Positions 18,724-40,872 of a DNA stretch of 64,000 nt are shown piece by piece. This DNA comes from Faecousia sp. (lineage in GTDB: Bacteria > Bacillota > Clostridia > Oscillospirales > Oscillospiraceae), in assembly GCA_045602725.1 (NCBI GenBank), contig JAZSCE010000076.1:22919-86918 (forward strand). The letters are read 5' to 3'. Under the pieces are notes generated by a model. That model was not told the origin of the DNA. It was given only the letters and a program-made list of their open reading frames with translations, and did no database searches. The position numbers were made by a program, and so were the translations under genes. Every line of letters starts with the position of its first letter. Within the stretch, counting starts at the first letter, position 1.

Positions 18724-18764
18724 AATAATCAATAATAAAATAAACATATTTGGAAGGGGTTCAT

Positions 18765-19868: not shown

Positions 19869-19869
19869 T

Positions 19870-20808
19870 ATGGTAGATAACATGCAACAATGGAAGGCGT
19901 GGCTGTACCTGTCGCCGGCGATTGTACTTTTGCTGGTGTTTACCGTATGGCCCATCTTCAACACTGTGCGTATGGCTTTCTTGGAGAATTACTCCGGTCT
20001 GAAGGCTGCGGGCGGTATGGTTTTCGAGTTTGGTATCGGAAACTTCCAAAAGGTCATTGAGTATAAGCGCATTATTGAGTGCTTGACCAATACGGTGCTG
20101 CTTTGCGTTCTGACTGTGCCGATCTCCACGCTCCTTGCGCTGCTGATCGCTGTTACACTCAATTCCATCAAGCCCCTGCAGAAGCTGCTGCAGACCATCT
20201 TCTTCCTGCCCTATGTTACCAACTCCATCGCCATCGGCATGGTGTTCGCAGCAATGTTTAACATCATTGGCCTCCGGCCCGATGGTGTGACCGCAGATAC
20301 CTGGGGTATTGTCAACAATGTAATCCAGTTCTTTGGTGGAAAGCCGATCAACTGGATCAACCAAGGCTCCCAATACTGGGCCAACATGACCGTTATGGTT
20401 GTGTACATCGTGTGGAATGCGCTGCCCTTCAAGATCCTGGTTTTGCTGGGCGGTTTGCAGAGCATCAACAAGCAGTACTATGATGCTGCCAAGGTTGATG
20501 GCACTCCCCGCAAGAGAGTGTTCACCCGCATCACCGTGCCGCTGCTGTCCCCGATGCTGGCCTATGTTATCATCACCGGCTTTATCGGCGGCTTCAAGGA
20601 ATACTCCAGCATCGTCGGTATCTTCGGCGAAACGATGGGACCTCCGGATGCAGAGCGCAGACTCAATACGATGGTCGGCTTCATTTACGATGCCTTGAGC
20701 AGCAACAGCCAGGGCCGCGCAAGTGCCGCCGCACTGATCCTCTTTGCAATTATTCTTGCTGTTACATTGTTTAACAACTATGTCATCAAGAAGCACACAC
20801 ATTATTAA
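19870..20808 (+). CDS. ABC transporter permease 1 (CUT1 family)
   Basis: 6 TM; EAA-like loop LQSINKQYYDAAKVDG...RITVPLL. Confidence 0.95.
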   Translation: MVDNMQQWKAWLYLSPAIVLLLVFTVWPIFNTVRMAFLENYSGLKAAGGMVFEFGIGNFQKVIEYKRIIECLTNTVLLCVLTVPISTLLALLIAVTLNSIKPLQKLLQTIFFLPYVTNSIAIGMVFAAMFNIIGLRPDGVTADTWGIVNNVIQFFGGKPINWINQGSQYWANMTVMVVYIVWNALPFKILVLLGGLQSINKQYYDAAKVDGTPRKRVFTRITVPLLSPMLAYVIITGFIGGFKEYSSIVGIFGETMGPPDAERRLNTMVGFIYDALSSNSQGRASAAALILFAIILAVTLFNNYVIKKHTHY

Positions 20809-20822
20809 TAGGAGGGCTGTTT

Positions 20823-21707
20823 ATGGATAAGAATGTTATGCATGCGAAAGACCTGCAGCAGACCTCCTTCAACCAGAAGATCATCAAGTTTTGTGTAAAG
20901 TTCTTTACGTATCTGTTCCTTTGCACAATGGCATTGATCGTGCTGTTCCCGTTCTATTGGATGATTATTTCCTCCCTTAAGAGCCTGGCGGAATATCGCC
21001 TGAATGTGCCGACCTTCTGGCCAAAGAAAATTTTGTTCAGCAACTATTCTGAGGCATTTACCACCGCAAACCTGGGCAGCCTATTCATCAATACGATGAT
21101 CGTCGGCGTGTCCTCCACGCTGCTGTCGCTGATCATTACGGTGCTGTCCGCATTTGCCTTTGCCCGCCTGGAGTTCAAGGGCAGAGATACGATGTTCACG
21201 CTGCTGCTGGCTACTATGATGATTCCCGGTGAGCTGTTTACCATCACCAACTACACCACTGTTACCCAGCTGAACTGGATGAACACCTATACGGTCCTGA
21301 TCGTCCCGTTCCTGGTCAGCGTGTTCTATATCTTCCTGCTGCGTCAGAACTTCCTGCAGATCCCGAACGAGCTTTACCTGGCTGCAAAGGTGGACGGAAC
21401 TTCTGATCTGAAGTATTTGTGGAAGGTTATGGTGCCCCTGGCATTGCCCACATTGATCTCCATCACCATCCTGAAGATGATGGGCGCCTGGAACTCCTAT
21501 ATGTGGCCCCGCCTGGTTGCCAACGATGAGGCGCACCGCCTGATCACCAATGGTTTGCGTAATGCATTTACCACCACAACCGGTGATGTAAACTACCCCG
21601 TGCAGATGGCTGCAGTTGCTCTGGTTTCCGCGCCGCTGTTCCTGGTATTCATCTTCCTGCGTAAGTACATTATGGCTGGCGTCAGCCGTAGTGGTATCAA
21701 GGGCTAA
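20823..21707 (+). CDS. ABC transporter permease 2 (CUT1 family)
   Basis: FPFYWMIISSLK, AFAFARLEFKGR, IPNELYLAAKVDG, WNSYMWP. Confidence 0.95.
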   Translation: MDKNVMHAKDLQQTSFNQKIIKFCVKFFTYLFLCTMALIVLFPFYWMIISSLKSLAEYRLNVPTFWPKKILFSNYSEAFTTANLGSLFINTMIVGVSSTLLSLIITVLSAFAFARLEFKGRDTMFTLLLATMMIPGELFTITNYTTVTQLNWMNTYTVLIVPFLVSVFYIFLLRQNFLQIPNELYLAAKVDGTSDLKYLWKVMVPLALPTLISITILKMMGAWNSYMWPRLVANDEAHRLITNGLRNAFTTTTGDVNYPVQMAAVALVSAPLFLVFIFLRKYIMAGVSRSGIKG

Positions 21708-21824: not shown

Positions 21825-23249
21825 ATGAAAAGAATCCTGGCACTGCTTCTGCTGGTTGTGATGGTCATTGGCCTCGTAGCTTGCAGCAGCACAAAAACTC
21901 CCACCGGCACCCCCAATGCAGGCGCAATCAACTTTACTGTACCTGAAGGCGGTTACGATGGCAGTGCGGTAGAAATCAAGTTCTATCACACTATGGGCGC
22001 TAATCTGCGTGAAGTTCTGGATGCATACATTGTTGAGTTCAACAAGCTGTATCCCAACATCACCATCATCAGCGAGCAGGTTGGCGGCTACGATGATGTG
22101 CGTGAGCAGATCAGCACCGAGATCCCTGCCGGCAATCAGCCCCACATCGCATACTGCTACCCTGACCACGTTGCTCTGTACAACCTGGCTGGCGCAGTTA
22201 CCACCCTGGACGGCCTGATCGACAGCAAGATCGAGATTACCCGCAATGATGGCACCAAGGAAATCCTGGGTCTGACCGACGAGCAGAAGGCCGACTTCAT
22301 CGAAGGTTACTACAACGAAGGCAAGGAATTCGGCGACGGCTTGATGTACACCATGCCCCTGAGTAAGTCCACCGAGGTTCTGTACTACAACAAGACCTTC
22401 TTTGATGCAAACAACCTGACCGTTCCCACCACTTGGGACGAGCTGGAAGCTCTGTGCGCACAGATCAAGGCAATTGATCCTAAGTGCATTCCTCTGGGCT
22501 ACGACTCCGAGGCCAACTGGTTCATCACCATGTGTGAGCAGTATGGCTCTGACTACACCAGTGCCAGCGGCGACCACTACCTGTTTGACAATGAGCAGAA
22601 CCATGCATTCGTTAAGAAGTTCAACGAGTGGTATAACAAGGGCTACCTGACCACTCAGACTCTGTACGGTGCTTACACCTCCGGCCTGTTCACTGCTCAC
22701 GGCGAGGATACCACCAAGAGCTATATGTCCATCGGTTCTTCCGCAGGTGCAACTCACCAGCGTCCCGATATGGTTGACGGCGCTTATCCCTTCGAGGTTG
22801 GTATCGCTACCATTCCTCAGGTCAGCGCTGACAACAAGAAGGTCATTTCTCAGGGCCCCAGCCTCTGCATCTTCCAGAAGAGCAATCCTCAGGAAGTCAT
22901 TGCTTCCTGGCTGTTTGTTAAGTTCCTGACCACCAATGTTTCCTTCCAGGCCGAGTTCGGTATGGCTTCCGGCTACGTTCCTGTCCTGAAGTCCGTTGGT
23001 GAGAACCCTGTTTACAAGGACTACCTGGCCAGCGCTGACGGCGGTGCTTACATCGCTGCTCTGTCCGCTAAGGTTTGTCTGGAGCAGGAGAGCGCTTACT
23101 ACACCTCTCCCGCATTTAACGGTTCTTCCACCGCTCGTGACCAGGTTGGCGCTCTGATGGCTAAGTGCCTGACGCTGACCGGTGATGTGGATTCTCAGAT
23201 TGCCGCTGCATTCCAGGATGCAATCGACGAATGTGAATACCACACCTAA
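21825..23249 (+). CDS. ABC transporter substrate-binding lipoprotein
   Basis: Lipobox LVAC; IKFYHTM, EFNKLYPNI, LYYNKTFF, VPTTWDEL, SWLFVKFLT. Confidence 0.93.
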   Translation: MKRILALLLLVVMVIGLVACSSTKTPTGTPNAGAINFTVPEGGYDGSAVEIKFYHTMGANLREVLDAYIVEFNKLYPNITIISEQVGGYDDVREQISTEIPAGNQPHIAYCYPDHVALYNLAGAVTTLDGLIDSKIEITRNDGTKEILGLTDEQKADFIEGYYNEGKEFGDGLMYTMPLSKSTEVLYYNKTFFDANNLTVPTTWDELEALCAQIKAIDPKCIPLGYDSEANWFITMCEQYGSDYTSASGDHYLFDNEQNHAFVKKFNEWYNKGYLTTQTLYGAYTSGLFTAHGEDTTKSYMSIGSSAGATHQRPDMVDGAYPFEVGIATIPQVSADNKKVISQGPSLCIFQKSNPQEVIASWLFVKFLTTNVSFQAEFGMASGYVPVLKSVGENPVYKDYLASADGGAYIAALSAKVCLEQESAYYTSPAFNGSSTARDQVGALMAKCLTLTGDVDSQIAAAFQDAIDECEYHT

Positions 23250-23255: not shown

Positions 23256-24614
23256 ATGCGTATGCTGAAAAAATTACTTTGTTTATTGATGGCTCTGTGC
23301 CTCACAGCCGGTCTTTTGGCCGGTTGTGGGGAGCCGGCTACCGGCCCCGTAACAGATGCCACAGAGCCTACCTCCGCTGATCCTACCGAGACTGTGGACT
23401 ATGCGGTATCCGAAAAGCTGAATATGAACTCCGCTACGGCAAAGATTGAAGTTACGGTCAAGCAGTTCATTGATGGCGATACCACCCATTTCCATGTTCC
23501 TGCATCTTTGATGCCCGGCGGCGTGCTCAAGGGCCGTTATTTGGCCGTGAACACTCCGGAATCTACCGGTAAGATCGAAGAATTTGGTAAAAAGGCATCC
23601 AATTTCACCAAGGAAAAGCTTTCCGCTGCCACCTCTATCGTTATCGAGAGTGAGACGGCAACCTGGGATGCAGACTCCACCGGTGACCGTTATCTCGTTT
23701 GGGTTTGGTACCGCACAGATGAAAACAGCGAGTACCGCAACCTGAATATTGAGCTTCTGCAGAATGGTTTGGCAATTGCCAGCAACTCGGCAAACAATCA
23801 GTATGGCGCCACCTGTATGAACGCTATCAACCAGGCCAAGGCACAGAAGCTGAATGTCTACTCCGGCCAGAAAGACCCTGATTTCTATTATGGCGACGCT
23901 GTGGAGCTGACACTGAAGGAACTGCGTACCAATGTGGAGACCTACAATGGTATGAAGGTCGCATTCAACGGTGTTGTTACCGTTAACGATAGCAACAGCG
24001 TTTATGTGGAAGCATACGATGCTGAAACAGATATGTACTACGGTATGTCCGTGTACTACGGCTACAATCTGAACGGCAAGGGCCTGGAGATCCTGACTGT
24101 GGGCAATGAAGTCCGCATTGTCGGCTCTGTCCAGTACTACGAAGCAGGCGGCACTTATCAGGTGTCTGACCTGAACTATCGTCTGATGCAGCCGGATGAT
24201 CCCAGCAATATCCAAAAGATCAGCGAAGGAAACGACCCTGCATTCTTTGAAACGACTGCAGACCGCTTCCTGAACGGTCAGGTTACCGTCACCGATGATG
24301 AGGGTAATGAAACTACGAATAAATATGCTGCAATGGCAATGAGCACCTCCATTGAAATGAAGGGCCTGACTGTTGTGGATTCCTACACTACCAAGACCGA
24401 AGGCAGTGCATCCAAGGGCGCATTCACCCTGACCTGTGTTGTTGACGGCCAGTATGTGGATGTCCGCACCACAGTCCTGACTGACAAGGACGGCAATCTT
24501 GTCAAAGCAGATGTTTATGAAGGTAAGACCATTGATGTAAAGGGCATTGTCGATTACTACAACGGCGCTTACCAAATCAAAGTGTTCTCCGCAGATAATA
24601 TTACAATTCATTGA
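23256..24614 (+). CDS. Thermonuclease (SNase) family lipoprotein with C-terminal OB-like domains
   Basis: Lipobox LAGC; IDGDT, RYLAVNTPE, GDRYLVWVW, NIELLQNGLA; C-term VGNEVRIVGSVQYY and GKTIDVKGIVDYYNG. Confidence 0.88.
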   Translation: MRMLKKLLCLLMALCLTAGLLAGCGEPATGPVTDATEPTSADPTETVDYAVSEKLNMNSATAKIEVTVKQFIDGDTTHFHVPASLMPGGVLKGRYLAVNTPESTGKIEEFGKKASNFTKEKLSAATSIVIESETATWDADSTGDRYLVWVWYRTDENSEYRNLNIELLQNGLAIASNSANNQYGATCMNAINQAKAQKLNVYSGQKDPDFYYGDAVELTLKELRTNVETYNGMKVAFNGVVTVNDSNSVYVEAYDAETDMYYGMSVYYGYNLNGKGLEILTVGNEVRIVGSVQYYEAGGTYQVSDLNYRLMQPDDPSNIQKISEGNDPAFFETTADRFLNGQVTVTDDEGNETTNKYAAMAMSTSIEMKGLTVVDSYTTKTEGSASKGAFTLTCVVDGQYVDVRTTVLTDKDGNLVKADVYEGKTIDVKGIVDYYNGAYQIKVFSADNITIH

Positions 24615-24631: not shown

Positions 24632-27600
24632 ATGAAGAAAATAATCATTTGGAGCCTTATTATAGCTTTGCTGCTGGGTATCGGCGTTGGCGCATTCCTG
24701 TACTTTGGCAAGAATGAGCCCTCCACTGAGACTCCCGGTACCAGCAACGCTGTAACGAAGGCCGACTTGGAGGCCGCACTTGCGTATATCAAGACGGTCT
24801 ACAAGAACCCCAGCGAGAAGACACCTCGCGATTTCCAGCGCATTGCAAATGTCCCCGTTAACGGCCAGAACATCGAGGTTGTTTGGTCTGTTGATGTAGG
24901 GGAGGAGCATGTCAAGGTCGTCAAGGGCGAAAATGGCATGGTCACCATCGATGTGAATGAGAATTCCGCACAGGATATCAAGTACGTCCTGACCGCTACC
25001 ATTTCCAATACCGATGGCGAAAGTGTTTCCCATAGCTGGAACCACCTGCTGCCCATGGTCAACAATGACATGGCTGCCATCGTTGAGGAAGCTTACCAGC
25101 TGGAAGTTGGCGCTTCCATGGACTACGAGGTCACCCTGACCGGCGTAATCACCAGAGTTAACACCGCTTATGATCCCAACTATCAGAACATCACCGTCAC
25201 CATCGAGGTTGCCGGTGCTGAAGGCAAGCCCATCGAGTGCTATCGTCTGAAGGGCGAAGGCGCTGATACTCTGCAGATTGGCGACACCATTACCGTTACC
25301 GGTACTCTGAAGAACTATAACGGTAAGATCGAGTTCGATCAGGGCTGTGTCCTGGATGAGGTTATTAAGGGTGAGGCTGTTGATGCTCCTACTGATGCAC
25401 TGCAGATTCTGAAGGAAGCTTACGCTCTGGAAGACGGCAAGGCTCTGCCTTACGTTGCTACCCTGACCGGTAAGATCACCACCATCAATTCCGTCTACAA
25501 CCCCGCTTATGGCAACGTTTCCGTTACCATCGTTGTTGACGGTAATACCGACTATCCCATTCTGTGCTACCGCATTGCCGGTGAAGGCGCAGACAACCTG
25601 CTGATTGGCGATACCATCACCGTTAAGGGTTACATTTGTAACTATGCAGGTAAGATCGAGTTCGAGCAGGGCAGCCAGCTGATCAAGGTCGAGAAGACCG
25701 GCACTGAGATCGAGGCTCCCACCGACGTCAACGAGATTTTGAATGCTGCATTTGGTCTGGCTGACGGCGAGACTCTGCCCTACAAGGCAACCCTGACCGG
25801 CGTTATCACCAAGATCAAGACTCCTTATGACCCCGGTTATAAGAATGTCACCGTTGCTATTAAGGTCAACGGCAAGACCATCGAGTGCTACCGCCTGGCT
25901 GGCGAAGGCGCTGACAAGATCGGCGAGAAGGATACCATCACCGTTACCGGTTACCTGATGAACTATCACGGCACCGTTCAGTTCGCTCAGGGCTGTACCC
26001 TGGACAGCTGGAAGGACACCGGCACGGATGTTCCTCCCGAGGATGAGAACATTTCCGCTTCCACCGTTGTTGCGGAGATCGTTTCCAAGCCCAAGACCGG
26101 CACCGCTTACAAGTTCTTCCTGCATCAGAAGACTCTGGGCAAGAACCTGTACCTGACCGGCAATATGGACGGTTTCTATTTCGAGACCTCTGCTGACCAC
26201 ACCGAGGCTATTGATGTCTTTGTCGAAGAAGTTTCCGGTGGCTACCGTCTGTACTTCAAGAAGAACGGTGTCAAGAACTACATCGAAGTTCTAAGACAGT
26301 TCTCCGATTCCACTGGCAAGTACCACAACAATGTTGTCTTCACCACCAAGCCCACCAAGGTCCTGAAGTGGAATGACACCATCAAGTCCTTCACCTGTGA
26401 ACTGGATGTTGACGGTACTGCTACTACCTTCTACTTCGGTACATACAGCTCCTACCAGACTATGAGCGCTTCCGATATCGCTAAGGTTACCGGCGAGAAT
26501 GCTTCTACCCTGGAAGAGACCAACTTTGTTGCGCACCTGGCTACCCTGAAGGAAACCAAGGTCAGCGCAGAGGAGAAGGCTTTTGAAGAGCTGAAGTCTG
26601 ACTATCCCGCTACCCAGAACCCCGCTAATGTTACTGAGAGCTTCACCCGCAGAGCATACTACACTGTTGAGGGCAAGAAGGTTCAGATCAAGTGGACTAC
26701 CGACAACAAGTCCGTCAAGATCGTTGACAACGGCAACGGCACCGTTACCGTTAAGATCGCTCGTGGCGAAGAGGTCACTAACTTCAAGCTGACCGCTACC
26801 ATCACCGGCGATGACGAGACCTTTACTACCTCCTGGGATTACAAGATTCCCGCTAAGCCCAGCGAGGATGTTCCTGAGCTGCCCACCAAGGACGGCGCAA
26901 CCATCACCATCGAGCAGGCCCTGATTTACGGTGCCGAGCTGGATGAGTACACCACCATCAAGTACAAGGTTACCGGCAAGATCTTCAAGGTCTACAACAC
27001 CCAGTACGGCAATATGTACATTACTGATGAGAAGGGTAATGTCCTGACCATCTACGGCACCTACAATGCTGACGGCACTGTGCGCTACGATGAGATGGAA
27101 GTTAAGCCTGTTGCCGGCGATACCATCACCGTTTATGGCTCTTTGGGCCAGTACAACGGCACTGCACAGATCAAGAACGGCTGGATCGTTGATCACATCC
27201 CCGGCACCGGTGAGGAAGAAGACGATGACAAGCCCGAGATGACTATGCAGGAGATCGTCGATGCTGCTTATGACCTGGCTCCCGGCGGCATGCTGCTGGA
27301 GGACCATACTCTGACCGGTATCATCACCAGCGTTGACACTCCCTACAGCGATCAGTATGGCAATGTTACCGTTACCATCCAGGTTGCTGGCCGTGAGAAC
27401 AAGCCTATCAAGTGCTACCGTTTGGCTGGCAAGGGTGCTGACAAGATCAATGTCGGCGATACCATCACTGTCACCGGTATTCTGAAGAACTACAACGGCA
27501 CCATCGAGTTCGATCAGGGCTGCACTCTGGATTCCTACGTCAAGGGCGAGAATCCTCCTCCCACTGAGCCCACCACTCCCGCAACTCAGCCCACCACACC

Positions 27601-30600
27601 TTCTGGCGGCATTTTGGTTCCTCAGATCGTTACCGAGCCCAAGACCGGCAAGGCTTACAAGTTCTTCCTGACTCAGAAGAATCTGGGCAAGACCCTGTAC
27701 CTGACCGGCGAGATGAACGGCTTCTACTTCGCTACCACCGAGTCTCACGAAGAGGCAGTTGATGTCTATGTTGAGAAGGTTACCGGCGGCTACCGTCTGT
27801 ACTTCAAGAATGGCAACGAGAAGAACTACATTGAAATGGCCCGCTCTGGAACCCATAACAATGTTATCTTCACCACCACTCCCACCAAGGTTCTGAAGTG
27901 GAATGCCGACATCCAGTCCTTCACCTGCGACCTGGATATCGACGGCGAGATCACCGATCTCTACTTCGGTACTTATGGCACCTACAGCACCTTTAGTGCT
28001 TCCAAGATTTCCTATGTTACCGGCGATAAGGCCGATACTATGGATGTCACCAACTTTGTTGCTCACCTGGCAACTATGAAGGAAGTCGCTGTTGTTCCCA
28101 CCGAGCCCACGACTCCTGCTACTAAGCCCACTACTCCCGCAACTAAGCCCACCACTCCCGTAGGTCCCACCACTCCCACTCAGAAGCCCACCGCTCCTGT
28201 TGTCAATCCTGACATTCCCACTACCGGCAAGGCATACAAATTCTTCCTGACTCAGAAGAATCTGGGCAAGACTCTGTATCTGACTGGCGAAATGCAGGGC
28301 TTCTACTTCGCTACCACTGAGAATGCGGCAGAAGCAGCCGATGTCTTTGTTGAGAAGGTTTCCGGCGGTTACCGCCTGTACTTCGTCAAGGATGGCGTTA
28401 AGAAATACATCGAAATGGCCCGCTCTGGAACCCATAACAATGTTATCTTCACCACCACTCCTGCAAAGACTCTGAAGTGGAATGCTGATATCAAGTCCTT
28501 CACTTGCGATTTGGATATCGACGGCGAGATCACTGATCTTTACTTTGGTACTTACGGCACCTATAGCACCTTCAGTGCATCCAAGATCTCCTATGTTACC
28601 GGCGAGAAGGCCGATACCATGGATGTATCCAACTTCGTTGCACGTCTGGCAGAAGTATCCGAGCCTCCCGTAGAGCCCACCACTCCTGCAACTCAGCCCA
28701 CTACTCCCGCAACTCAGCCCACTACTCCTCCTGCAACGCAGGCTACCGAGCCCACTCAGGCTCCCACTGAAGAGCCCACCGCAGCTCCTACCGAGCCCGC
28801 ACCCGGCATGACTATGCAGGAGATCGTTGACGCAGCTTACGAGCTGGCCAACGGCGCTTCTCTGGATGGTACCTACACTCTGACCGGTGTGATCACCAGA
28901 GTTCCTGAAGCATATAGCAGTCAGTATAGCAATGTAACTGTTGTTATTATCGTTGAGGGCCGTGAGGACAAGCCCATTACGTGCTACCGTATGAAGGGCG
29001 AGGGCGCTGATGTGATCAAGGTTGGTGATACCATCACTGTTACCGGCAGCATCAAGAATCACAACGGCACCTTCGAGTTTGCGCAGGGCTGCACTCTGGA
29101 TTCCTATGTTGTTGGCGTAGCGCCCGAGGATCCCACCGAGGGCATGACCATGCAGGAGCTGGTCGATTACGCTTACCAGCTGCCCATTGGTGGCTACATC
29201 GATGGCAAGACCCTGACCGGTGTTATTACCAGCGTTGATATTCCCTACAGCGATCAGTATGGCAATGTTACGGTTACCATCGTTGTTGAGGGTAGGGAAG
29301 ACAAGCCCATCGAGTGCTTCCGCCTGAAGGGCGAGGGCGCTGATGTGATTGCTGTTGGCGATACCATCACCGTCACCGGCAACCTGACCAACTACGAAGG
29401 CAAGATCGAGTTCACCTCCGGTTGTATTCTGGATTCCTATGTGAAGGCAGAGCCTCCCGTTGAGCCCACGACTCCCACCGAGCCTACCGTGGCTCCCACC
29501 GAGCCTACCGTGGCTCCCACCGAGGAACCCACGCAGGCTCCCACCGAGGAACCCACTGTCGCTCCTACTGAGCCTGTTGCTCCCAGCTATGAGCTGATTG
29601 GCCAGCCCAGTGTCGGCGTTGCCTACAAGTGGGCGGCTGATACCGGTAACGCAAAGGGCATCCTGACTTTCACCGGCACTACTGCTAACGCAGACTACCG
29701 TCTGGCCGTCTCCACCACTATGACCGATGGCGTCGATGTTTACGTCGAAGAGGTCACCGGTGGCTATCGGATGTACTTTATGTCCGGCGAGACCAAGACC
29801 TACATTGACATTTATCAGAACGGTACATATGTCAATGCCCGCCTGACCACCGAGCCCACTGCTGTGTTTGCCTGGAACAGCGAGTTCAACACCTTCGTGA
29901 CTGACATTGCTGGCACGGCTTGTTATCTGGGTACTTATACCAACAACAGCGGCACGACCTTCGACAATCTGAGCGCATCCAAGCTGAGCTATATGAATCC
30001 TGATAACGTTGACGTTACTCAGTTCCCCGCTCGCTTCTATGCACAGGCTGGTGCAGTTGAGCCTCAGCCTACTACTCCCGTAGTTCCCACCGAGCCCACG
30101 GTAGCCCCCACCGAGCCTACCGTGGCTCCCACGGAGCCCAGCGTTGCTCCTACCGAGCCCAGCGTTGCTCCTACCGAGCCCACTGTTGCTCCTACCGAGC
30201 CCGCAGCTGAGCCCGTATACAGCAAGATTACCACTCTGGCTGAGTTGACTACCGGCAAGTATGTTATGGTCGTCAGCAGTGGCCATGCTCCCACGACCCT
30301 GAGCGGCAATTGGGTGCTGTCCGGTATGCCCACTGTTTCCGGTGATGAGATTACTGTTGCCAATGCAGCCGGCTATATCTGGGATCTGACTGTCAGTGGT
30401 ACTTCCGTTGTACTGAAGGATTCCAATGGCGTGAGTATCAAGCCCAAGGGTGGCAACGAAAACGGCATTGCGAGCGGCACATACAGCTGGACAGTTTCCT
30501 GTACCAACGGCACTTTCCAGTTCAAGGGCACTGGCTCTGATACCACCACTCTCGCTGCAAATAAGGTTTCGAGCTACAAATTCCGTGCTTACAAGAATAC

Positions 30601-32266
30601 CACAGCAAATGACACTACCGGCTATCCCAGCGCATTCACTCTGTACAAGCTGGTAGAGGGTACTGTTGTAGAGCCCACGACTCCTACTGAGCCTACTCAG
30701 GAACCCACTCAGGCTCCTACCGAGGCTCCCACTACCGCTCCCACCGAGCCCGGTACTGAGATGACTATGCAGGAGATCGTTGACGCAGCTTACGAGCTGG
30801 CAAAAGGCGCTTCTCTGGATGGCACCTACACCCTGACCGGTGTGATCACCAGAGTGTCTGAACCTTATAACAGCCAGTACAGTAATGTTACCGTCGTTAT
30901 TACCATTGCAGGCCGTGAGGACAAGCCTATCACTTGCTACCACATGAAGGGCACCGGCGCGGATGTGATCGCTGCTGGCGATACCATCACCGTTACCGGT
31001 ACGATTACGAACTACAATGGCACCATTGAGTTCGCCTCTGGCTGTGCGCTGGATTCCTATGTTAAGGGCGTTGCCCCTGAGGATCCCTATGCCGGTATGA
31101 CCATGCAGGAGCTGGTCGATGCTGCATACGCTCTGGAAGCAGGCAAGTACATTGACGGCAAGACCCTGACCGGTAAGATCACCAGTGTCGATGAAGCTTA
31201 CAATCAACAGTATAAGAACGTTACCGTTACCATCGTTGTTGAGGGTAAGGAAGACAAGCCCATCCAGTGCTATCATCTGAAGGGCAATGGCGCCGATATG
31301 ATCGGCGTTGGCGATACCATCACTGTTACCGGCAACCTGACCAACTACAAGGGCAACAAGATCGAGTTCGATTTCTGCACCCTGGATTCCTATACCAAGG
31401 AACAGAACGGCGGTGAGCTGGACCCTAGTGATATCAACTACGTTTACGGCAGTGCAAGTGGTTACAACAATGTAATCAAGAACTGGGGCGAGCGTGGCGT
31501 AGTTGCGACTGGTCTGTCTCCCAATGCCAAGAAGTTCTACACCGACAACAACACTTCCTACAGCACTCTGTCCGCTCTGTCCGGCAGCGCTACTGTTTCC
31601 AGCGTTCCCAGCAGCGCACTGTACAGCGAGCTGCAGGAGCTGATGGTGGAAAACCACACCAAGCAGACTTCCTACGGTGACACTCGCGATCTGTACTGCT
31701 TCACCGATTGTGAGAATTCTGACGATTCCAGCATTTCCTGCTTCTACTCCGGCACGGCTATCGGTCCCGACTGGGACAACGGTACCACCTGGAACCGTGA
31801 GCACTGCTGGCCCAAGAGCAAGACTCCTGCCGGCGATGCTGACAATGGCAGCACCGGCGAGGTTGGCGACATTATGACCCTGCGTCCTACCAAGTCCAAC
31901 ATCAACTCCAGCCGTGGCAATAAGGCTTACGGCCAGAGCAGCAGCTATTACAATCCCAATGGCAGCCTGGGCAGCACCGGTTATGACCTGCGTGGCGATG
32001 TAGCCCGTATTGTGCTGTACAACTATGTCCGCTGGGGCAATACCTCCAAGATGTGGGGTACCGATGGCGTTATGGAGAGCAAAGATGTCCTGCTGGATTG
32101 GATCGAGGCTGACCCCGTTGACACTTGGGAACTGGGCCGTAACGACTCTGTTGAGTCCATCACCGGCACCCGTAATGTCTTTGTTGACTATCCCGAGCTG
32201 GCCTTCGTCCTGTTCGGTGAGACTGTTCCCACCACTATGCAGACTCCTTCCAAGGCAGCTGCTTAA
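24632..32266 (+). CDS. Giant membrane-anchored repetitive surface nuclease (about 9 OB-fold-like repeats, Pro/Thr linkers, C-terminal endonuclease I/Bsn domain)
   Basis: N-term TM; repeats LTGxIT...NVTVTI...PIxCYR...GDTITVTG...YNGxIEF; C-term WNREHCWPKS, NSSRGNK, RGDVAR, LLDW...DPVD..E..RND...RNVFVDYPE. Confidence 0.88.
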   Translation: MKKIIIWSLIIALLLGIGVGAFLYFGKNEPSTETPGTSNAVTKADLEAALAYIKTVYKNPSEKTPRDFQRIANVPVNGQNIEVVWSVDVGEEHVKVVKGENGMVTIDVNENSAQDIKYVLTATISNTDGESVSHSWNHLLPMVNNDMAAIVEEAYQLEVGASMDYEVTLTGVITRVNTAYDPNYQNITVTIEVAGAEGKPIECYRLKGEGADTLQIGDTITVTGTLKNYNGKIEFDQGCVLDEVIKGEAVDAPTDALQILKEAYALEDGKALPYVATLTGKITTINSVYNPAYGNVSVTIVVDGNTDYPILCYRIAGEGADNLLIGDTITVKGYICNYAGKIEFEQGSQLIKVEKTGTEIEAPTDVNEILNAAFGLADGETLPYKATLTGVITKIKTPYDPGYKNVTVAIKVNGKTIECYRLAGEGADKIGEKDTITVTGYLMNYHGTVQFAQGCTLDSWKDTGTDVPPEDENISASTVVAEIVSKPKTGTAYKFFLHQKTLGKNLYLTGNMDGFYFETSADHTEAIDVFVEEVSGGYRLYFKKNGVKNYIEVLRQFSDSTGKYHNNVVFTTKPTKVLKWNDTIKSFTCELDVDGTATTFYFGTYSSYQTMSASDIAKVTGENASTLEETNFVAHLATLKETKVSAEEKAFEELKSDYPATQNPANVTESFTRRAYYTVEGKKVQIKWTTDNKSVKIVDNGNGTVTVKIARGEEVTNFKLTATITGDDETFTTSWDYKIPAKPSEDVPELPTKDGATITIEQALIYGAELDEYTTIKYKVTGKIFKVYNTQYGNMYITDEKGNVLTIYGTYNADGTVRYDEMEVKPVAGDTITVYGSLGQYNGTAQIKNGWIVDHIPGTGEEEDDDKPEMTMQEIVDAAYDLAPGGMLLEDHTLTGIITSVDTPYSDQYGNVTVTIQVAGRENKPIKCYRLAGKGADKINVGDTITVTGILKNYNGTIEFDQGCTLDSYVKGENPPPTEPTTPATQPTTPSGGILVPQIVTEPKTGKAYKFFLTQKNLGKTLYLTGEMNGFYFATTESHEEAVDVYVEKVTGGYRLYFKNGNEKNYIEMARSGTHNNVIFTTTPTKVLKWNADIQSFTCDLDIDGEITDLYFGTYGTYSTFSASKISYVTGDKADTMDVTNFVAHLATMKEVAVVPTEPTTPATKPTTPATKPTTPVGPTTPTQKPTAPVVNPDIPTTGKAYKFFLTQKNLGKTLYLTGEMQGFYFATTENAAEAADVFVEKVSGGYRLYFVKDGVKKYIEMARSGTHNNVIFTTTPAKTLKWNADIKSFTCDLDIDGEITDLYFGTYGTYSTFSASKISYVTGEKADTMDVSNFVARLAEVSEPPVEPTTPATQPTTPATQPTTPPATQATEPTQAPTEEPTAAPTEPAPGMTMQEIVDAAYELANGASLDGTYTLTGVITRVPEAYSSQYSNVTVVIIVEGREDKPITCYRMKGEGADVIKVGDTITVTGSIKNHNGTFEFAQGCTLDSYVVGVAPEDPTEGMTMQELVDYAYQLPIGGYIDGKTLTGVITSVDIPYSDQYGNVTVTIVVEGREDKPIECFRLKGEGADVIAVGDTITVTGNLTNYEGKIEFTSGCILDSYVKAEPPVEPTTPTEPTVAPTEPTVAPTEEPTQAPTEEPTVAPTEPVAPSYELIGQPSVGVAYKWAADTGNAKGILTFTGTTANADYRLAVSTTMTDGVDVYVEEVTGGYRMYFMSGETKTYIDIYQNGTYVNARLTTEPTAVFAWNSEFNTFVTDIAGTACYLGTYTNNSGTTFDNLSASKLSYMNPDNVDVTQFPARFYAQAGAVEPQPTTPVVPTEPTVAPTEPTVAPTEPSVAPTEPSVAPTEPTVAPTEPAAEPVYSKITTLAELTTGKYVMVVSSGHAPTTLSGNWVLSGMPTVSGDEITVANAAGYIWDLTVSGTSVVLKDSNGVSIKPKGGNENGIASGTYSWTVSCTNGTFQFKGTGSDTTTLAANKVSSYKFRAYKNTTANDTTGYPSAFTLYKLVEGTVVEPTTPTEPTQEPTQAPTEAPTTAPTEPGTEMTMQEIVDAAYELAKGASLDGTYTLTGVITRVSEPYNSQYSNVTVVITIAGREDKPITCYHMKGTGADVIAAGDTITVTGTITNYNGTIEFASGCALDSYVKGVAPEDPYAGMTMQELVDAAYALEAGKYIDGKTLTGKITSVDEAYNQQYKNVTVTIVVEGKEDKPIQCYHLKGNGADMIGVGDTITVTGNLTNYKGNKIEFDFCTLDSYTKEQNGGELDPSDINYVYGSASGYNNVIKNWGERGVVATGLSPNAKKFYTDNNTSYSTLSALSGSATVSSVPSSALYSELQELMVENHTKQTSYGDTRDLYCFTDCENSDDSSISCFYSGTAIGPDWDNGTTWNREHCWPKSKTPAGDADNGSTGEVGDIMTLRPTKSNINSSRGNKAYGQSSSYYNPNGSLGSTGYDLRGDVARIVLYNYVRWGNTSKMWGTDGVMESKDVLLDWIEADPVDTWELGRNDSVESITGTRNVFVDYPELAFVLFGETVPTTMQTPSKAAA
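27630..28660 (+). repeat. Intragenic duplication of a ~145-aa beta-rich module (two near-identical copies; divergent copies near 26080 and 29590)
   Basis: TGKAYKFFLTQKNLGKTLYLTGEM...MDVxNFVA repeated with long DNA identities; boundaries approximate. Confidence 0.85.
28807..31398 (+). repeat. Intragenic duplication of an OB-repeat pair (about 28807-29450 vs 30759-31398)
   Basis: ATGACTATGCAGGAGATCGTTGACGCAGCTTACGAGCTGGC is shared verbatim. Confidence 0.8.
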
Positions 32267-32280
32267 TCGCAAAACCTAAT

Positions 32281-32316
32281 AAAAAATCCCAAGGGTGAAA
32301 ACCCTTGGGATTTTTT
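32281..32316. terminator. Bidirectional intrinsic terminator
   Basis: AAAAAATCCCAAGGGT-GAAA-ACCCTTGGGATTTTTT between convergent operons. Confidence 0.9.
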
Positions 32317-32317
32317 A

Positions 32318-33040
32318 TTAACCTTTTAAGTGTTTTATTTTTTCGTATACAGCCGGGTCTGCCCGGTCAATGGTCAGGGGCATAATGGAAATATAGCCGC
32401 TCATTACGCAATCACTGTCTAATGTCAGGTCATTCTGATTTTTGTACACACATTTGCCGTGGGGCATATACATATCGTTTCCCTCGTGAATGAAATCATC
32501 GGAGTAGAAATGACCGCCCTGGCGGGTGATACGAATGCCCTTGGCATCGGGCACAACATTGACATTATACACATCGCACAGCTCCATCAGCTTGTGCTTG
32601 CAGAAGAATTCCAAAACCTGATCCAGCGGCTCGGTGGCACGATCATAAAACTCAGGTCCGGTGGAGATTGCTACAGCCTTCAGACCCAGTGAAACTGCCT
32701 CAAATACAGCGCCGGCTGTGCCGGAGTACATAATGTCACAGCCCATATTGAAGCCCCGGTTGATACCGGAGATCACAAGATCAAACTGCATTTTCATACC
32801 CAGCACGGCGTAACGGATGCAGTCGGCAGGAGAGGAGTCCACCGTGTAGGCCGTCAGCCCCGGCTCCAGCTCCACTTGCTTGACTTCGAAGGGCTTGTGC
32901 AGCTCGATGCTTTGGCTCTTGCCACTTTGTTCATATTTTGGGACGACAACGGTGACCTCTCCCAGTTTTTGGCACCACTTTACCAGCGGTATCAGCTGGG
33001 GAGCGCTGATACTATCGTCGTTTACAACCAGTATTCTCAT
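32318..33040 (-). CDS. surE: 5'/3'-nucleotidase SurE
   Basis: MRILVVNDD, EQSGKS, SPADC, VISGINRGFN, YSGTAGAVFEA; ATGA overlap with the upstream gene. Confidence 0.93.
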   Translation of the reverse strand: MRILVVNDDSISAPQLIPLVKWCQKLGEVTVVVPKYEQSGKSQSIELHKPFEVKQVELEPGLTAYTVDSSPADCIRYAVLGMKMQFDLVISGINRGFNMGCDIMYSGTAGAVFEAVSLGLKAVAISTGPEFYDRATEPLDQVLEFFCKHKLMELCDVYNVNVVPDAKGIRITRQGGHFYSDDFIHEGNDMYMPHGKCVYKNQNDLTLDSDCVMSGYISIMPLTIDRADPAVYEKIKHLKG

Positions 33041-34023
33041 AACCAATCCTCGTGCGTTTCCTTGTATTCCTTGACCAGTGCGTCGGTTTCACGGATCAGC
33101 ATATTCATCTCGGCTTTGCTGTGTACTGTGGCGCCGCTGGCACAGGCGTGACCGCCGCCATTGTACTTTTCAGCGATGGAATTGATGTGAACGAAGCGGG
33201 AGCGCAGACGGACCCGGATGGCGCCGTCGGCATTGCCGGTATCAATAAATACGATCCAGCTGATGCAGCCACGAATCTTATCCATTGTGTTGACGCAGGC
33301 GCTGGCCTCTTCCATGGTCAAGCCGAATTTCTCCTGCATTTCCTTATCCACATACAGATACGCAACACCATGCTCGGTGACCTGCATGTGCTCGTAAATA
33401 TAGGCTTTGAACTTGTAGTAGGAGAAGTCCTCCAAATATAGCTGGGCGAAGAGCATATCCGTATTGATGCCGGCATCCAGCAGGGTTGCTGCGGCACGCA
33501 GCGTATCGCCGTTGACACCCGCGTACTTGAAACGGCCGGAATCCGTCACCATACCGGTGTACAGATAGGTCGCGGCCTCGCTGGTCAGCACCAGCTCATC
33601 GCTGAAGGTTTGATAAAAGTCTGCCACCAGCTCGCAGCAGGAGGAGCGCTCTTCCTCAACCCACACGATGTCGCCATAGCTTTCAACGGGAATGTGATGG
33701 TCAATCTTGATCAGTTCCTTACAGCGCTTATAGTTCTTGTTGGAAATCCGGGCTTCCGATGCGGTGTCCAGCACGATGCCCAAAGCATCGTCATAGAGCG
33801 TCTCATCCACAGCCGCATCCTCGGGGCCCAGGAATTTCAAATACTCGGTGTTGTCATCGTCAATCAGGTAGATTTCCTTTTCCGGAAAGCTGGCGATAAG
33901 GATTGCCTTAAGGCCTTTTGTAGCGCCAACGCAATCGCCATCGTTGCGCACATGCCGGAACAGAAAAATCCGGTCATATTCCTTGATTTTCTCTAAAATT
34001 TCTCTTTTTATCTCAAAATTCAT
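33037..34023 (-). CDS. nrnA: DHH/DHHA1 oligoribonuclease / pAp phosphatase (NrnA-like), copy B
   Basis: HVRNDGD, IDHH, TDSGRF, RVRLRS, GGGHACASG. Confidence 0.88.
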   Translation of the reverse strand: MNFEIKREILEKIKEYDRIFLFRHVRNDGDCVGATKGLKAILIASFPEKEIYLIDDDNTEYLKFLGPEDAAVDETLYDDALGIVLDTASEARISNKNYKRCKELIKIDHHIPVESYGDIVWVEEERSSCCELVADFYQTFSDELVLTSEAATYLYTGMVTDSGRFKYAGVNGDTLRAAATLLDAGINTDMLFAQLYLEDFSYYKFKAYIYEHMQVTEHGVAYLYVDKEMQEKFGLTMEEASACVNTMDKIRGCISWIVFIDTGNADGAIRVRLRSRFVHINSIAEKYNGGGHACASGATVHSKAEMNMLIRETDALVKEYKETHEDWL

Positions 34024-34961
34024 TTGCTTTCTCCAATCATAGCGTCCAGGTCAGCCAGCATTGCCATAGCGGTGGCTTTGTCTGCAACGGTTGCGCCGCT
34101 GGCCTTGGCGTGACCGCCGCCGCCGTACTTGACAGCAATGGGGTTGATATTGTACTTGCTGGAGCGAAGCTCGCACAGTACGCCCTTTTCGGTTTCCGTA
34201 AAGTTGACCCAAATATCTACACCCTTGGTGTCGGACATAGTGCCCACCATACCCCGCGATACGGTAAAGGTATCCACATTCAGCGCTGCCAGCTCTTCCC
34301 GTGTGGTGTAGATGTAGGCAACATTATTTTCGGTGAAGTTGATCTTCAGTATGAACTTTGCCTTCAGCAGCTTGGAGGAGAAATCATCGGCGTATAGCGT
34401 GCGGTACAGTTCGTTGGTATCAATGGGGTGCTCCATCAGCTTGGATGCCAGCCGGAAGGTGCGGGAATTGGTGCTGTCATAGCGGAAGCGGCCGGAATCG
34501 GTGATCATACCGGTGAACAGCGCTTTGGATGCCTGCAGATTCAGCTTCAGATCGCATTGGATCGCAAATTCCGTGATCAGACCGCAGCAGCTTTCAAAAC
34601 TGGTATCGATGATTTCCAAATCTGCGATTTCTTCGCAGAAAATGTGGTGATCAAAGCGGATGGTCTTGGCTGCCAATGCGTAACGCTCATCGTTGATCAT
34701 AGATATAGAGCCGCAGTCCAGGATGATCGCCAGTGCGCCTTCATAGGTGCTGTCGGGGATCTCATCCATTTGGCTGCCTTCGATAAAGCCGTAAAATCCG
34801 GGATTATCGCCAACCACATACACCTGCTTAGCGGGGAAGTTCTCCTGAATAATCTGCTTCATACCTACCTGGCTGCCAATAGCATCGCCATCGGGCCGAC
34901 CGTGACGGTGGATAATGATGGTGTCAAATTCTTCAATTGTTTTTAGAATTTCTTGAAACAT
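34020..34961 (-). CDS. nrnA: DHH/DHHA1 oligoribonuclease / pAp phosphatase (NrnA-like), copy A
   Basis: HGRPDGDAIGS, FDHH, TDSGRF, ELRS, GGGHAKASG; RBS GAGGT. Confidence 0.9.
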   Translation of the reverse strand: MFQEILKTIEEFDTIIIHRHGRPDGDAIGSQVGMKQIIQENFPAKQVYVVGDNPGFYGFIEGSQMDEIPDSTYEGALAIILDCGSISMINDERYALAAKTIRFDHHIFCEEIADLEIIDTSFESCCGLITEFAIQCDLKLNLQASKALFTGMITDSGRFRYDSTNSRTFRLASKLMEHPIDTNELYRTLYADDFSSKLLKAKFILKINFTENNVAYIYTTREELAALNVDTFTVSRGMVGTMSDTKGVDIWVNFTETEKGVLCELRSSKYNINPIAVKYGGGGHAKASGATVADKATAMAMLADLDAMIGESK

Positions 34962-35059
34962 CGTAAACCTCACTTGTAAACGGCATCAAATTATCGTATA
35001 ATAAATCATAACATAAAACGACCGCTTACGCAATGTAAATATGATGAAAAACAGGTGAT

Positions 35060-35941: not shown

Positions 35942-36688
35942 TTATTTATTTTCCATTGCTACGGCCACATCCAGCGCAACTTTCATCATTGCGGTAAAGG
36001 CTGTCTGCCGCTCCTCAGAGGTGGTTTCCACGCCTTTGAGCACGTGGTCGGATATGGTGCAGATGCACAGCGCACGCTTGCCGTACCGGGCTGCGTTCAT
36101 ATATAGCGCGGCGGCTTCCATCTCCAGCGCCATAACGCCCATCTTCTTCAGGCCATATACGCTGTCCAAGCCCTCAGGCACGCCTGCGTGGTCACCATAG
36201 AACACATCGGAGGAATTGACATTACCCACGTGATAAGTGGCACCGGCGGCTTTGCAGGCCTCCACAGCGGCGCTGAGCAGCTCATAGGAGGCAATAGGAG
36301 CGAAAGTGCCAGGCAGATGGAACTGTGCGGCAAAATTGGAATCGGTGCAAGCGCCCTGAGCCAGGACCAACTCATACAGATTGATATGCTCCTGAATAGA
36401 GCCGGCGGAGCCGACACGGATGATATTTTCCACGCCGTAGCCGTTATAGAGTTCGTGAGAGTAAATGCCGATAGCGGGCATACCCATACCGGAAGCCATT
36501 ACGGAAACCTTAACGCCCTTGTAGTAGCCGGTATAGCCGTGGACACCACGGACATTGTTTACCAAAACGGGATTCTCCAGGAAGTTTTCAGCAATAAACT
36601 TGGAGCGCAGGGGATCGCCGGGCATCAGAACGGTCTTGCCGAAATCGCCGGGCTTGGCGCTGATGTGGGGGGTAGGTGTGTGTAACAT
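35942..36688 (-). CDS. deoD: Purine nucleoside phosphorylase (hexameric DeoD type)
   Basis: PTPHI, VLMPGDPLR, SGMGMP, IIRVGSAG, LEMEAA, TISDH; RBS AGGAGG. Confidence 0.96.
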   Translation of the reverse strand: MLHTPTPHISAKPGDFGKTVLMPGDPLRSKFIAENFLENPVLVNNVRGVHGYTGYYKGVKVSVMASGMGMPAIGIYSHELYNGYGVENIIRVGSAGSIQEHINLYELVLAQGACTDSNFAAQFHLPGTFAPIASYELLSAAVEACKAAGATYHVGNVNSSDVFYGDHAGVPEGLDSVYGLKKMGVMALEMEAAALYMNAARYGKRALCICTISDHVLKGVETTSEERQTAFTAMMKVALDVAVAMENK

Positions 36689-36704
36689 AGTATTGTCCTC
36701 CTGA

Positions 36705-38237: not shown

Positions 38238-38273
38238 TGTTATCTACTCCATTTTCTGTATATCTTTGAAAAA

Positions 38274-40228: not shown

Positions 40229-40238
40229 ACAACTCACC

Positions 40239-40868: not shown

Positions 40869-40872
40869 ATTC

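What the first reader, a model, noticed from the sequence alone, without database searches (positions are those of the whole stretch)
24632..32266. 2544-aa membrane-tethered nucleic-acid-harvesting protein: OB-repeat stalk ending in an endonuclease
Seen: an N-terminal TM anchor and two Ig-like segments. Eight closely related ~95-aa repeats (LTGxIT..NVTVTI..CY..GDTITVTG..YNG.IEF) plus one divergent copy have the pattern of OB folds. There are also four ~145-aa beta-rich modules, one further distinct beta module, Pro/Thr-rich linkers and a C-terminal endonuclease I domain retaining the EHxWP His. Established: OB folds commonly bind single-stranded nucleic acid, and Pro/Thr linkers are typical of clostridial modular glycanases. 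Inference: a multivalent binder that holds polymeric DNA/RNA at the cell surface and cuts it close to the importer, much as CBM-bearing cellulases do. I know of no described protein with this architecture.
Basis: partly seen in the sequence, partly recalled or inferred. Interest (0 to 1): 0.82.

Follow-up and report, generated by a model that had tools for sequence, protein, structure and literature searches.

The report
Gut clostridial DNA/RNA-harvesting surface nuclease stalk
This intact gene of an uncultured gut bacterium encodes a giant, likely membrane-anchored stalk of predicted nucleic-acid-binding folds tipped with a nuclease domain, inside a gene cluster that likely captures and imports DNA or RNA as food; the same design was already proposed for marine bacteria in 2021.

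Summary
The 2544-aa ORF is real: hydrophobic N-terminus, two related Ig-like segments, nine OB repeats (confident AlphaFold model matching anticodon-binding/RPA OB folds), four unnamed beta-trefoil modules, one further beta module, six Pro/Thr linkers and a C-terminal Endonuclease I domain whose putative catalytic Glu, His and Asn are invariant in 107 homologues. It ends an operon with a sugar-type ABC importer and a thermonuclease lipoprotein, flanked by nucleotidases, two NrnA-like oligoribonucleases and a nucleoside phosphorylase.

Two corrections. First, the nuclease is an add-on: 12 of 12 complete operon-terminal orthologues examined lack it, and most are lipoproteins; the C-terminal nuclease forms one branch, likely one fusion. 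Second, the design is in print: Wasmund et al. 2021 described an OB + C-terminal Endonuclease I protein in Izemoplasmatales DNA-degradation loci with the same hold-and-cut hypothesis.

Binding is unproven: the repeats are acidic, and 13 of 150 relatives pair them with starch-binding modules. This scan noted similar operons before on other DNA. Verdict: new variant of a known kind, interest 0.4.

The parts
24632..32266 (+). Giant surface protein, 2544 aa, last gene of the operon
24641..24706 (+). Hydrophobic N-terminal segment (aa 4-25), predicted membrane anchor; replaces the lipobox of most orthologues
   Evidence: hydropathy; lipobox pattern in 110 of 120 homologues
24749..25060 (+). Ig-like segment 1 (aa 40-143); fold not modelled
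25058..26023 (+). OB repeats 1-3 (aa 143-464)
26075..26557 (+). Beta-trefoil module 1 (aa 482-642)
26558..26866 (+). Ig-like segment 2 (aa 643-745), homologous to segment 1
26885..27205 (+). Divergent OB repeat 4 (aa 752-858)
27233..27550 (+). OB repeat 5 (aa 868-973), the copy that was modelled (pLDDT 97.7)
27617..28087 (+). Beta-trefoil module 2 (aa 996-1152), the copy that was modelled (pLDDT 96.4)
28211..28660 (+). Beta-trefoil module 3 (aa 1194-1343)
28805..29449 (+). OB repeats 6-7 (aa 1392-1606)
29585..30055 (+). Beta-trefoil module 4, divergent (aa 1652-1808)
30209..30667 (+). Distinct beta module D5 (aa 1860-2012); possibly a second beta-trefoil type (weak lead only)
   Evidence: no profile match to the other module
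30758..31405 (+). OB repeats 8-9 (aa 2043-2258), directly before the nuclease
31529..32263 (+). Endonuclease I (PF04231) domain, aa ~2300-2544; E2390, H2391, N2425, R2428
32277..32320 (.). Perfect 20-bp inverted repeat with A/T tails between convergent genes; likely bidirectional terminator
23256..24614 (+). Thermonuclease (SNase) + OB lipoprotein, 17 nt upstream of the giant gene
21825..23249 (+). ABC substrate-binding lipoprotein; best solved relative 7C0x series (E 5e-20) ahead of UgpB (E 5e-10)
18750..21707 (+). ABC ATPase and two permeases (sugar/CUT1 type)
17956..18723 (+). RDD-family membrane protein
17096..17938 (+). PHP phosphoesterase, nearest RNase RNM / 3',5'-nucleoside bisphosphate phosphatase (below curated cut-offs)
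15959..17092 (+). NT5C 5'(3')-nucleotidase fused to a guanylate-kinase domain; first gene of the run
32318..34973 (-). SurE nucleotidase and two DHH/DHHA1 enzymes nearest NrnA oligoribonuclease (232 bits, below the 350 cut-off)
35942..39319 (-). Purine nucleoside phosphorylase-like gene, 5'-nucleotidase lipoprotein, weak ribonuclease-family (PF00545) lipoprotein

Best explanation
The gene encodes the surface capture arm of a likely nucleic-acid feeding system: a predicted membrane-anchored chain of nine OB folds and four beta-trefoils that would hold extracellular DNA or RNA, ending in an Endonuclease I domain that is likely active. Proposed sequence (inferred throughout): the distal Endonuclease I, held beyond the cell wall by the stalk, makes the first cuts; the OB repeats retain the polymer and its fragments; the co-operonic thermonuclease lipoprotein trims them at the membrane; the ABC importer takes up very short oligonucleotides or nucleotides; the NrnA-like, PHP, SurE, NT5C and phosphorylase enzymes finish them inside, giving phosphate, pentose and bases. 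The ancestral operon gene is a non-catalytic OB/beta-trefoil lipoprotein; one lineage appears to have fused to it an Endonuclease I that elsewhere is a separate secreted gene, sometimes lying beside the same locus. The beta-trefoils are most likely adhesion or spacer modules; their ligand is unknown.
For: Shown: ORF and domain layout. OB model pLDDT 97.7; top matches LysRS anticodon domain (Foldseek E 5e-4) and AsnRS, LysRS, RPA, MCM (Z 9.6-9.0, rmsd 2.5-3.0, 86-98 aligned). Across 84 repeats the conserved non-core-looking positions include Y38, Y42, N44, Y62, R63, K65, Y87, E92. E2390, H2391, N2425, R2428 invariant in 107 of 107 homologues; Vvn uses Glu79, His80, Asn127 (PMC5758888, passages). 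Operon gaps 1-117 nt. At least ten genes at 15959-39319 match nucleic-acid or nucleotide enzyme families. In 200 genomes of the genus, 43 of 50 with the OB repeat also carry the thermonuclease lipoprotein, against 12.75 expected if independent (kin are not independent). The only enzyme domain recognised among 150 top OB-repeat cluster representatives is Endonuclease I (6 of 150), and OB joins it in two layouts, N-terminal and C-terminal (15 and 15 of 120 hits). The binding protein keeps the two Tyr and two Ser motifs shared with 7C0x (alignment); such residues bind phosphate in UgpB, GPC and U3G binders (PMC12718374, passages). Precedent: in ExeM, deleting the OB region abolishes activity (PMC6085458, passages).
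Against: No binding, activity or expression data. Every OB repeat is acidic (pI 4.2-5.2; D+E 12-18, K+R 6-10), though so is the nuclease domain (pI 4.5). A shared fold shows no function, and the best Z of 9.6 is modest. No single repeat passes PF01336 on its own. 13 of 150 representatives combine the same OB repeat with starch-binding modules (CBM26, X25, CBM20), some with dockerins, so the module is shuffled into other settings. The genome has matches to PurC, PurH and PyrF, so nucleotide auxotrophy does not explain the locus. The alignment to solved Endonuclease I structures covered only the C-terminal half: the Glu/His/Asn equivalence rests on motif and conservation. The N-terminal helix could be a cleaved signal peptide.
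Confidence: 0.68

Rival explanations
1. The stalk is an adhesin or glycan-binding spacer (OB and beta-trefoil modules binding food particles, mucus or the cell's own wall) that only positions the nuclease; the OB repeats do not bind nucleic acid, although the locus does feed on it.
For: Acidic repeats; beta-trefoil matches include many lectins and glycosidase-attached modules; 13 of 150 relatives join the OB repeat to starch-binding modules; Pro/Thr linkers; repeat number and order vary freely.
Against: Nearly all top structural matches are nucleic-acid-binding OB domains; tight co-occurrence with the thermonuclease operon; no glycoside hydrolase domain on any of 120 newly scanned representatives at E<=1e-7; conserved aromatic plus Arg/Lys/Asn/Glu positions.
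Confidence: 0.2
2. The nuclease serves biofilm remodelling, escape from host extracellular traps or exclusion of foreign DNA rather than feeding, as for streptococcal SWAN/SsnA or Vvn; the importer carries something else, such as glycerophosphodiesters.
For: Those roles are published for related architectures (PMC4118848, PMC9744736, PMC5714182; passages); the binding protein also matches UgpB (E 5e-10; NCBIfam 57.7 bits, far below the cut-off of 411); de novo nucleotide genes are present.
Against: Does not explain the clustering of nucleotidases, NrnA-like enzymes and a nucleoside phosphorylase around the importer; the best solved relative is the 7C0x protein, not UgpB.
Confidence: 0.08
3. 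The C-terminal nuclease domain is a degenerate passenger and the protein is simply a longer form of the non-catalytic lipoprotein.
For: 12 of 12 complete operon-terminal orthologues do without it.
Against: Catalytic-motif residues invariant in 107 of 107 homologues, 21 of them C-terminal forms, up to 85% identical across genomes.
Confidence: 0.04

Closest known systems
[quoted passage not shown] Izemoplasmatales DNA-degradation loci (Wasmund et al. 2021, PMC8289736; main-text passages and supplement file 4 part 3 read)
   Same: Predicted membrane-bound, YhcR-like OB folds, C-terminal Endonuclease I, inside a locus with other nucleases, phosphohydrolases and an ABC importer; the authors propose that it holds polymeric DNA near the cell for digestion and uptake.
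   Different: 1,049 aa against 2,544; has a lamin-tail domain, which Pfam did not find here; no beta-trefoils or Pro/Thr linkers reported; wall-less marine Bacilli against a walled gut Clostridia lineage; their loci include a phosphate ABC transporter, not seen among the genes annotated here. Sequence homology of the stalks was not tested. Figure pages of the supplement are pictures and could not be read.
Mycoplasma SNase-lipoprotein/ABC operon (M. agalactiae MAG_5030-5070; PMC3585158, passages)
   Same: Thermonuclease lipoprotein co-located with a sugar-type ABC transporter and binding protein, proposed to import nucleic-acid precursors.
   Different: No giant OB/beta-trefoil protein and no Endonuclease I described; different gene order.
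Surface-anchored OB + nuclease enzymes: Shewanella ExeM, Streptococcus SWAN/SsnA/SpnA, Bacillus subtilis YhcR (PMC6085458, PMC4118848, PMC9744736, PMC3222306; passages; the YhcR paper itself is not held)
   Same: OB module(s) plus a non-specific nuclease kept at the cell surface; in ExeM the OB region is required for activity.
   Different: Catalytic domain is EEP/DNase I-like (or, for YhcR, recalled, thermonuclease plus 5'-nucleotidase); C-terminal anchors; far fewer OB folds.
Endonuclease I family PF04231 (Vvn, EndoI, Dns, RNase Bsn; PMC5714182 section 22 read)
   Same: Catalytic domain; the family is known to carry many cell-surface Ig-like accessory domains.
   Different: The review lists fn3, LTD and Big_2 as partners, not OB arrays or beta-trefoils; DNA versus RNA preference of this member is unknown.
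Bacteroidales ddbABCDEF DNA-utilisation locus (PMC12478041, passages)
   Same: Gut locus joining secreted nucleases, a transporter and candidate binding proteins; shown experimentally to be needed for DNA degradation.
   Different: Gram-negative TonB-dependent system with a different set of parts.

Membership tests
Endonuclease I (PF04231) | Profile match above the curated cut-off | tested here: met
   75.3 bits against 25, aa 2332-2522
Endonuclease I (PF04231) | Glu-His pair and downstream metal-binding Asn of the His-Me finger | tested here: met
   E2390, H2391, N2425 invariant in 107 of 107; equivalence to Vvn E79/H80/N127 by motif, not by structural alignment
Endonuclease I (PF04231) | Metal-dependent non-specific nuclease activity | not testable with these tools
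   needs an assay
Nucleic-acid-binding OB fold (PF01336 and relatives) | OB barrel | tested here: met
   model pLDDT 97.7; Foldseek E 5e-4 LysRS; Z 9.6, rmsd 2.7, 89 aligned to AsnRS; whole-protein Pfam 44.6 bits against 27, no single stretch passing
Nucleic-acid-binding OB fold (PF01336 and relatives) | Aromatic/basic ligand face | tested here: inconclusive
Nucleic-acid-binding OB fold (PF01336 and relatives) | Binds nucleic acid | not testable with these tools
   needs a binding assay
Izemoplasmatales large OB-Endonuclease I protein (Wasmund 2021) | N-terminal export/membrane signal, OB folds, C-terminal Endonuclease I | tested here: met
Izemoplasmatales large OB-Endonuclease I protein (Wasmund 2021) | Lamin-tail domain | tested here: not met
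   no PF00932 match at E<=0.01
Izemoplasmatales large OB-Endonuclease I protein (Wasmund 2021) | Lies in a locus with nucleases, phosphohydrolases and an ABC importer | tested here: met
Izemoplasmatales large OB-Endonuclease I protein (Wasmund 2021) | Sequence homology of the stalk to the published protein | not tested
   direct comparison not made; works-like claim only
ExeM/SWAN/SsnA/YhcR surface nucleases | EEP (or thermonuclease + 5'-nucleotidase) catalytic domain and C-terminal anchor | tested here: not met
   only Endonuclease_1 found; the protein ends in that domain
Mycoplasma-type SNase-ABC operon | SNase lipoprotein adjacent to sugar-type ABC genes and a binding protein | tested here: met
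Mycoplasma-type SNase-ABC operon | Co-transcription | not testable with these tools
   gaps of 1-117 nt and one shared terminator-like repeat suggest it
Ricin-type/CBM13 beta-trefoil lectin | Beta-trefoil fold | tested here: met
   pLDDT 96.4; 122 chains at Z>=8, best Z 11.8, rmsd 3.1, 129 aligned
Ricin-type/CBM13 beta-trefoil lectin | Family profile match and sugar-binding sites | tested here: inconclusive
   no ricin-type Pfam hit on this protein or 27 relatives; top structural hits are tied across lectins, FGF, Kunitz and others, 3-13% identity

The most novel reading that the evidence does not exclude
The OB array is a relay across the Gram-positive wall: a distal nuclease cuts polymer outside, and a chain of low-affinity OB sites hands oligonucleotides down to a membrane-level thermonuclease and a dinucleotide-type ABC importer. 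The locus would then be a Gram-positive counterpart of a polysaccharide-utilisation locus for nucleic acids, marking about a quarter of the species of a large uncultured herbivore-gut genus as specialist DNA/RNA degraders, with an unnamed beta-trefoil family as a second binding module.
Probability: 0.15. Interest if true: 0.72.

Novelty: new variant of a known kind. Interest (0 to 1): 0.4.

Why it matters
Who recycles the large load of microbial and dietary nucleic acid in the gut, and how walled Gram-positive bacteria import it, is little known: the one gut DNA-utilisation locus with experimental proof that I found is in Bacteroidales (PMC12478041). This locus gives a concrete, testable candidate in Oscillospiraceae, with small expressible parts (a 105-aa OB repeat, a 150-aa beta-trefoil without a Pfam family, a 245-aa nuclease, a binding protein). 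It also shows a natural pair, stalk with and without the fused nuclease, that tests what tethering adds. The concept itself is not new.

Tried and rejected
Whole-protein and profile searches of solved-structure sequences gave only low-complexity or weak hits. Foldseek gave no match at E<=0.001 for the beta module; its list and that include toxin receptor-binding beta-trefoils, which reflects the common fold only. NCBIfam names none of the modules. The Pfam NanE, OstA_2 and BP74_N hits are sums of weak repeat matches, no stretch passing, and were dismissed. D5 versus the beta-trefoil profile: no match; the Atlas lead to RicinB_lectin_2 (22% of one cluster, low recognition) is weak. Assembly artefact rejected. 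DnaA-box-like sites before the operon (motif recalled): 8 matches in the window against 5.1 expected, and not kept upstream in 8 related loci except one imperfect site, so rejected. Promoter/terminator scan at chance level, and it missed the inverted repeat found. Auxotrophy idea rejected: PurC match in 175 of 201 genomes. Context of the OB + starch-module proteins could not be obtained: one weak locus without OB hits and 0 of 401 genomes at E<=1e-90. No RNA holder listed. A paper search did not confirm that PDB 7C0x is the U3G-binding protein; that link is recalled. No paper on such a locus in Oscillospiraceae appeared in searches of the open library. No complex prediction was run, as no protein-protein binding is claimed.
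Full report
OBSERVATION. The ORF at 24632-32266 (+) encodes 2544 aa. It begins with a hydrophobic stretch without a lipobox cysteine and contains nine ~105-aa repeats (eight 44-82% identical, one about 30%), four ~150-160-aa modules (31-84%), two mutually homologous ~100-aa segments, a further module at aa 1860-2012, six Pro/Thr linkers totalling 282 residues and a C-terminal Endonuclease I domain (75.3 bits, cut-off 25). Exact DNA repeats inside the gene are at most 50 nt, and two independent proteins of 2974 and 2959 aa have the same layout and are 79-80% identical over the last 505 residues, so the gene is not an assembly artefact. Its nearest named relatives are uncultured Oscillospiraceae from herbivore guts (record titles; source names).

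FOLDS. An AlphaFold model of one repeat from an 84-row alignment is confident (pLDDT 97.7) and matches OB domains: LysRS anticodon domain (Foldseek E 5e-4); AsnRS, LysRS, RPA, AspRS, MCM (Z 9.6-9.0). The Atlas places it near PF01336, DUF6359 and DUF5689 clusters. The 150-aa module (39 rows, pLDDT 96.4) is a beta-trefoil: 122 chains at Z>=8, best 11.8, tied across lectins, glycosidase-attached modules, FGF and others at 3-13% identity; Foldseek found nothing at E<=0.001 and no Pfam or NCBIfam family names it. D5 and the Ig-like segments were not modelled. In the nuclease, E2390, H2391, N2425 and R2428 are invariant in 107 of 107 homologues; Vvn uses Glu79, His80 and Asn127 (PMC5758888, passages). 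The equivalence is by motif, since the alignment to solved structures covered only the C-terminal half. The family includes DNases and the RNase Bsn (PMC5714182, section 22), so the substrate is open.

CONTEXT. The gene ends a same-strand run with gaps of 1-117 nt: NT5C-guanylate kinase fusion, PHP phosphoesterase (nearest RNase RNM/pNp phosphatase), RDD protein, ABC ATPase, two permeases, binding protein, thermonuclease-OB lipoprotein. A perfect 20-bp inverted repeat follows the stop. Beyond it lie SurE, two NrnA-like DHH enzymes, a 5'-3' exonuclease, a nucleoside phosphorylase, a 5'-nucleotidase lipoprotein and a weak ribonuclease-family lipoprotein. The binding protein's best solved relative is the 7C0x series (E 5e-20) ahead of UgpB (5e-10), with the Tyr and Ser motifs kept; that 7C0x is the Thermus U3G dinucleotide binder is recalled, while the existence of that binder and the phosphate-binding role of two Tyr and two Ser come from PMC12718374 (passages). 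In a draw of 200 genomes of the genus, the OB repeat matched in 50 and the thermonuclease lipoprotein in 51; 43 have both, 12.75 expected if independent (incomplete genomes, related species).

THE NUCLEASE IS AN ADD-ON. Of the 20 loci fetched (chosen by OB score), 12 show a complete OB gene directly after the thermonuclease or binding protein, and none of these has Endonuclease I; three more run off their contig (one of them after a complete, nuclease-free OB gene) and five are not beside those genes. Among 120 proteins found with the beta-trefoil profile (311-2000 aa only, which excludes full-length giants), 110 have a lipobox-like pattern and 2 have the nuclease. Among the top 120 hits to aa 2040-2544, including the window's own, 30 combine OB and Endonuclease I, 15 with it C-terminal and 15 N-terminal. 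In 80 best genome loci for the nuclease (of 332 confirmed), 75 carry it N-terminally in a separate secreted gene, 7 of those within 10 kb of the thermonuclease or binding-protein gene and 12 near any gene of the locus; the 4 C-terminal forms all precede SurE-DHH-DHH and one shows the whole operon. In a quick tree of 107 domains (80 loci, 25 hand-picked proteins, one further locus, the window), the 21 C-terminal forms fall on one side of a branch (SH-aLRT 88, no bootstrap, midpoint root): compatible with a single fusion, not proof. Genome G398 has the operon with the 5' part of the giant gene at one contig end and the OB-OB-nuclease part on another contig.

BREADTH AND A CAVEAT. The OB profile matches 6,887 clusters at E<=0.001 (835 at 1e-30). 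Of the best 150, 120 were newly scanned: 81 lipobox-like, 34 with the beta-trefoil, 1 with Endonuclease I, none with a glycoside hydrolase at E<=1e-7, and 8 with CBM26/X25 starch-binding modules; with the 30 seen earlier the totals are 6 with the nuclease and 13 with starch-binding modules. The context of the latter could not be found. All nine repeats are acidic, as is the nuclease domain, but Y38, Y42, N44, Y62, R63, K65, Y87 and E92 are conserved. The genome has PurC, PurH (one stop inside the match) and PyrF matches, so the gain is more likely phosphate, pentose and salvage than relief of auxotrophy (inference).

MECHANISM (inferred). Anchored at its N-terminus, a chain of 16 folded modules and flexible linkers would carry the nuclease beyond the wall; the OB repeats would retain the polymer and its fragments; the thermonuclease lipoprotein would trim them at the membrane; the importer would take up di- or short oligonucleotides; NrnA-like, PHP, SurE, NT5C and phosphorylase enzymes would finish them. 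From established chemistry, thermonuclease leaves 3'-phosphates and Endonuclease I 5'-phosphates, so together they yield pNp, which fits a pNp-phosphatase-like PHP gene in the operon. Confidence 0.68; rivals are a glycan-binding or spacer stalk (0.2), a non-nutritional nuclease (0.08) and a dead nuclease (0.04).

KNOWN SYSTEMS. A cultured relative grows better on DNA and induces its locus (PMC8397711, passages). The thermonuclease-ABC core parallels M. agalactiae MAG_5030-5070 (PMC3585158, passages). ExeM, SWAN and SsnA are surface OB + nuclease enzymes with a different catalytic domain (passages). The ddb locus is the tested gut precedent in Bacteroidales (passages). Searches of the open library listed no paper on this locus in Oscillospiraceae; subscription papers and preprint supplements were not covered. 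Earlier notes of this scan describe the same operon type in other genomes.

VERDICT. Real, coherent and well supported by context; a new variant of a known kind. What is new is the unnamed beta-trefoil family, the large mostly non-catalytic OB-array lipoprotein family, the lineage-limited nuclease fusion and the walled gut host. Interest 0.4.

Noticed in passing
window 15959-17092 (+): NT5C-type nucleotidase fused to a guanylate-kinase domain heads the operon; split into two ORFs in L046.
   Followed up: partly
window 17956-18723 (+): An RDD-family membrane protein is kept directly before the ABC ATPase in nearly every related locus; a functional clue for a poorly understood family.
   Followed up: partly
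proteins P0137, P0139, P0153, P0160, P0171, P0201, P0290, P0298, P0308: Secreted proteins combining this OB repeat with CBM26/X25/CBM20 modules and often a dockerin, with no catalytic domain recognised; context not found.
   Followed up: partly
proteins P0124-P0131, P0136: Lipoproteins with 11-13 OB repeats, often one CBM26, and a hydrophobic, basic-tailed C-terminus, so possibly anchored at both ends.
   Followed up: no
proteins P0039-P0113 (about 600 aa): A large family of lipoproteins made only of one Ig-like segment and three of the new beta-trefoils, with no OB repeat.
   Followed up: no
window 27233-27550 and other repeats: Two cysteines are conserved in the OB repeat (C61 in 77 of 84, C97 in 60 of 84); a possible disulfide, not checked in the model.
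   Followed up: no
L041:4621-9197 and L046:7075-10756: One relative has the binding protein and OB gene duplicated; another has lost the importer and thermonuclease but keeps the OB/beta-trefoil gene directly after PHP.
   Followed up: no
window 38408-39319 (-): 303-aa lipoprotein with a weak microbial-ribonuclease match (PF00545, 23.5 bits against 24); homologues lie near the locus in L048 and L054.
   Followed up: partly
window 59235-63170 (-): 1311-aa BspA-type leucine-rich-repeat surface protein with Ig domains.
   Followed up: no
window 9938-13813 (-): 1291-aa AcrB/AcrD/AcrF-family (RND) transporter, longer than usual.
   Followed up: no
window 39300-41400: Low-GC stretch (about 40%) with a sigma-factor-like gene and two small membrane-protein genes by eye; possibly acquired.
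   Followed up: no
window 15780-15909: One perfect and one near DnaA-box-like site before the operon; not conserved in relatives, likely chance.
   Followed up: yes
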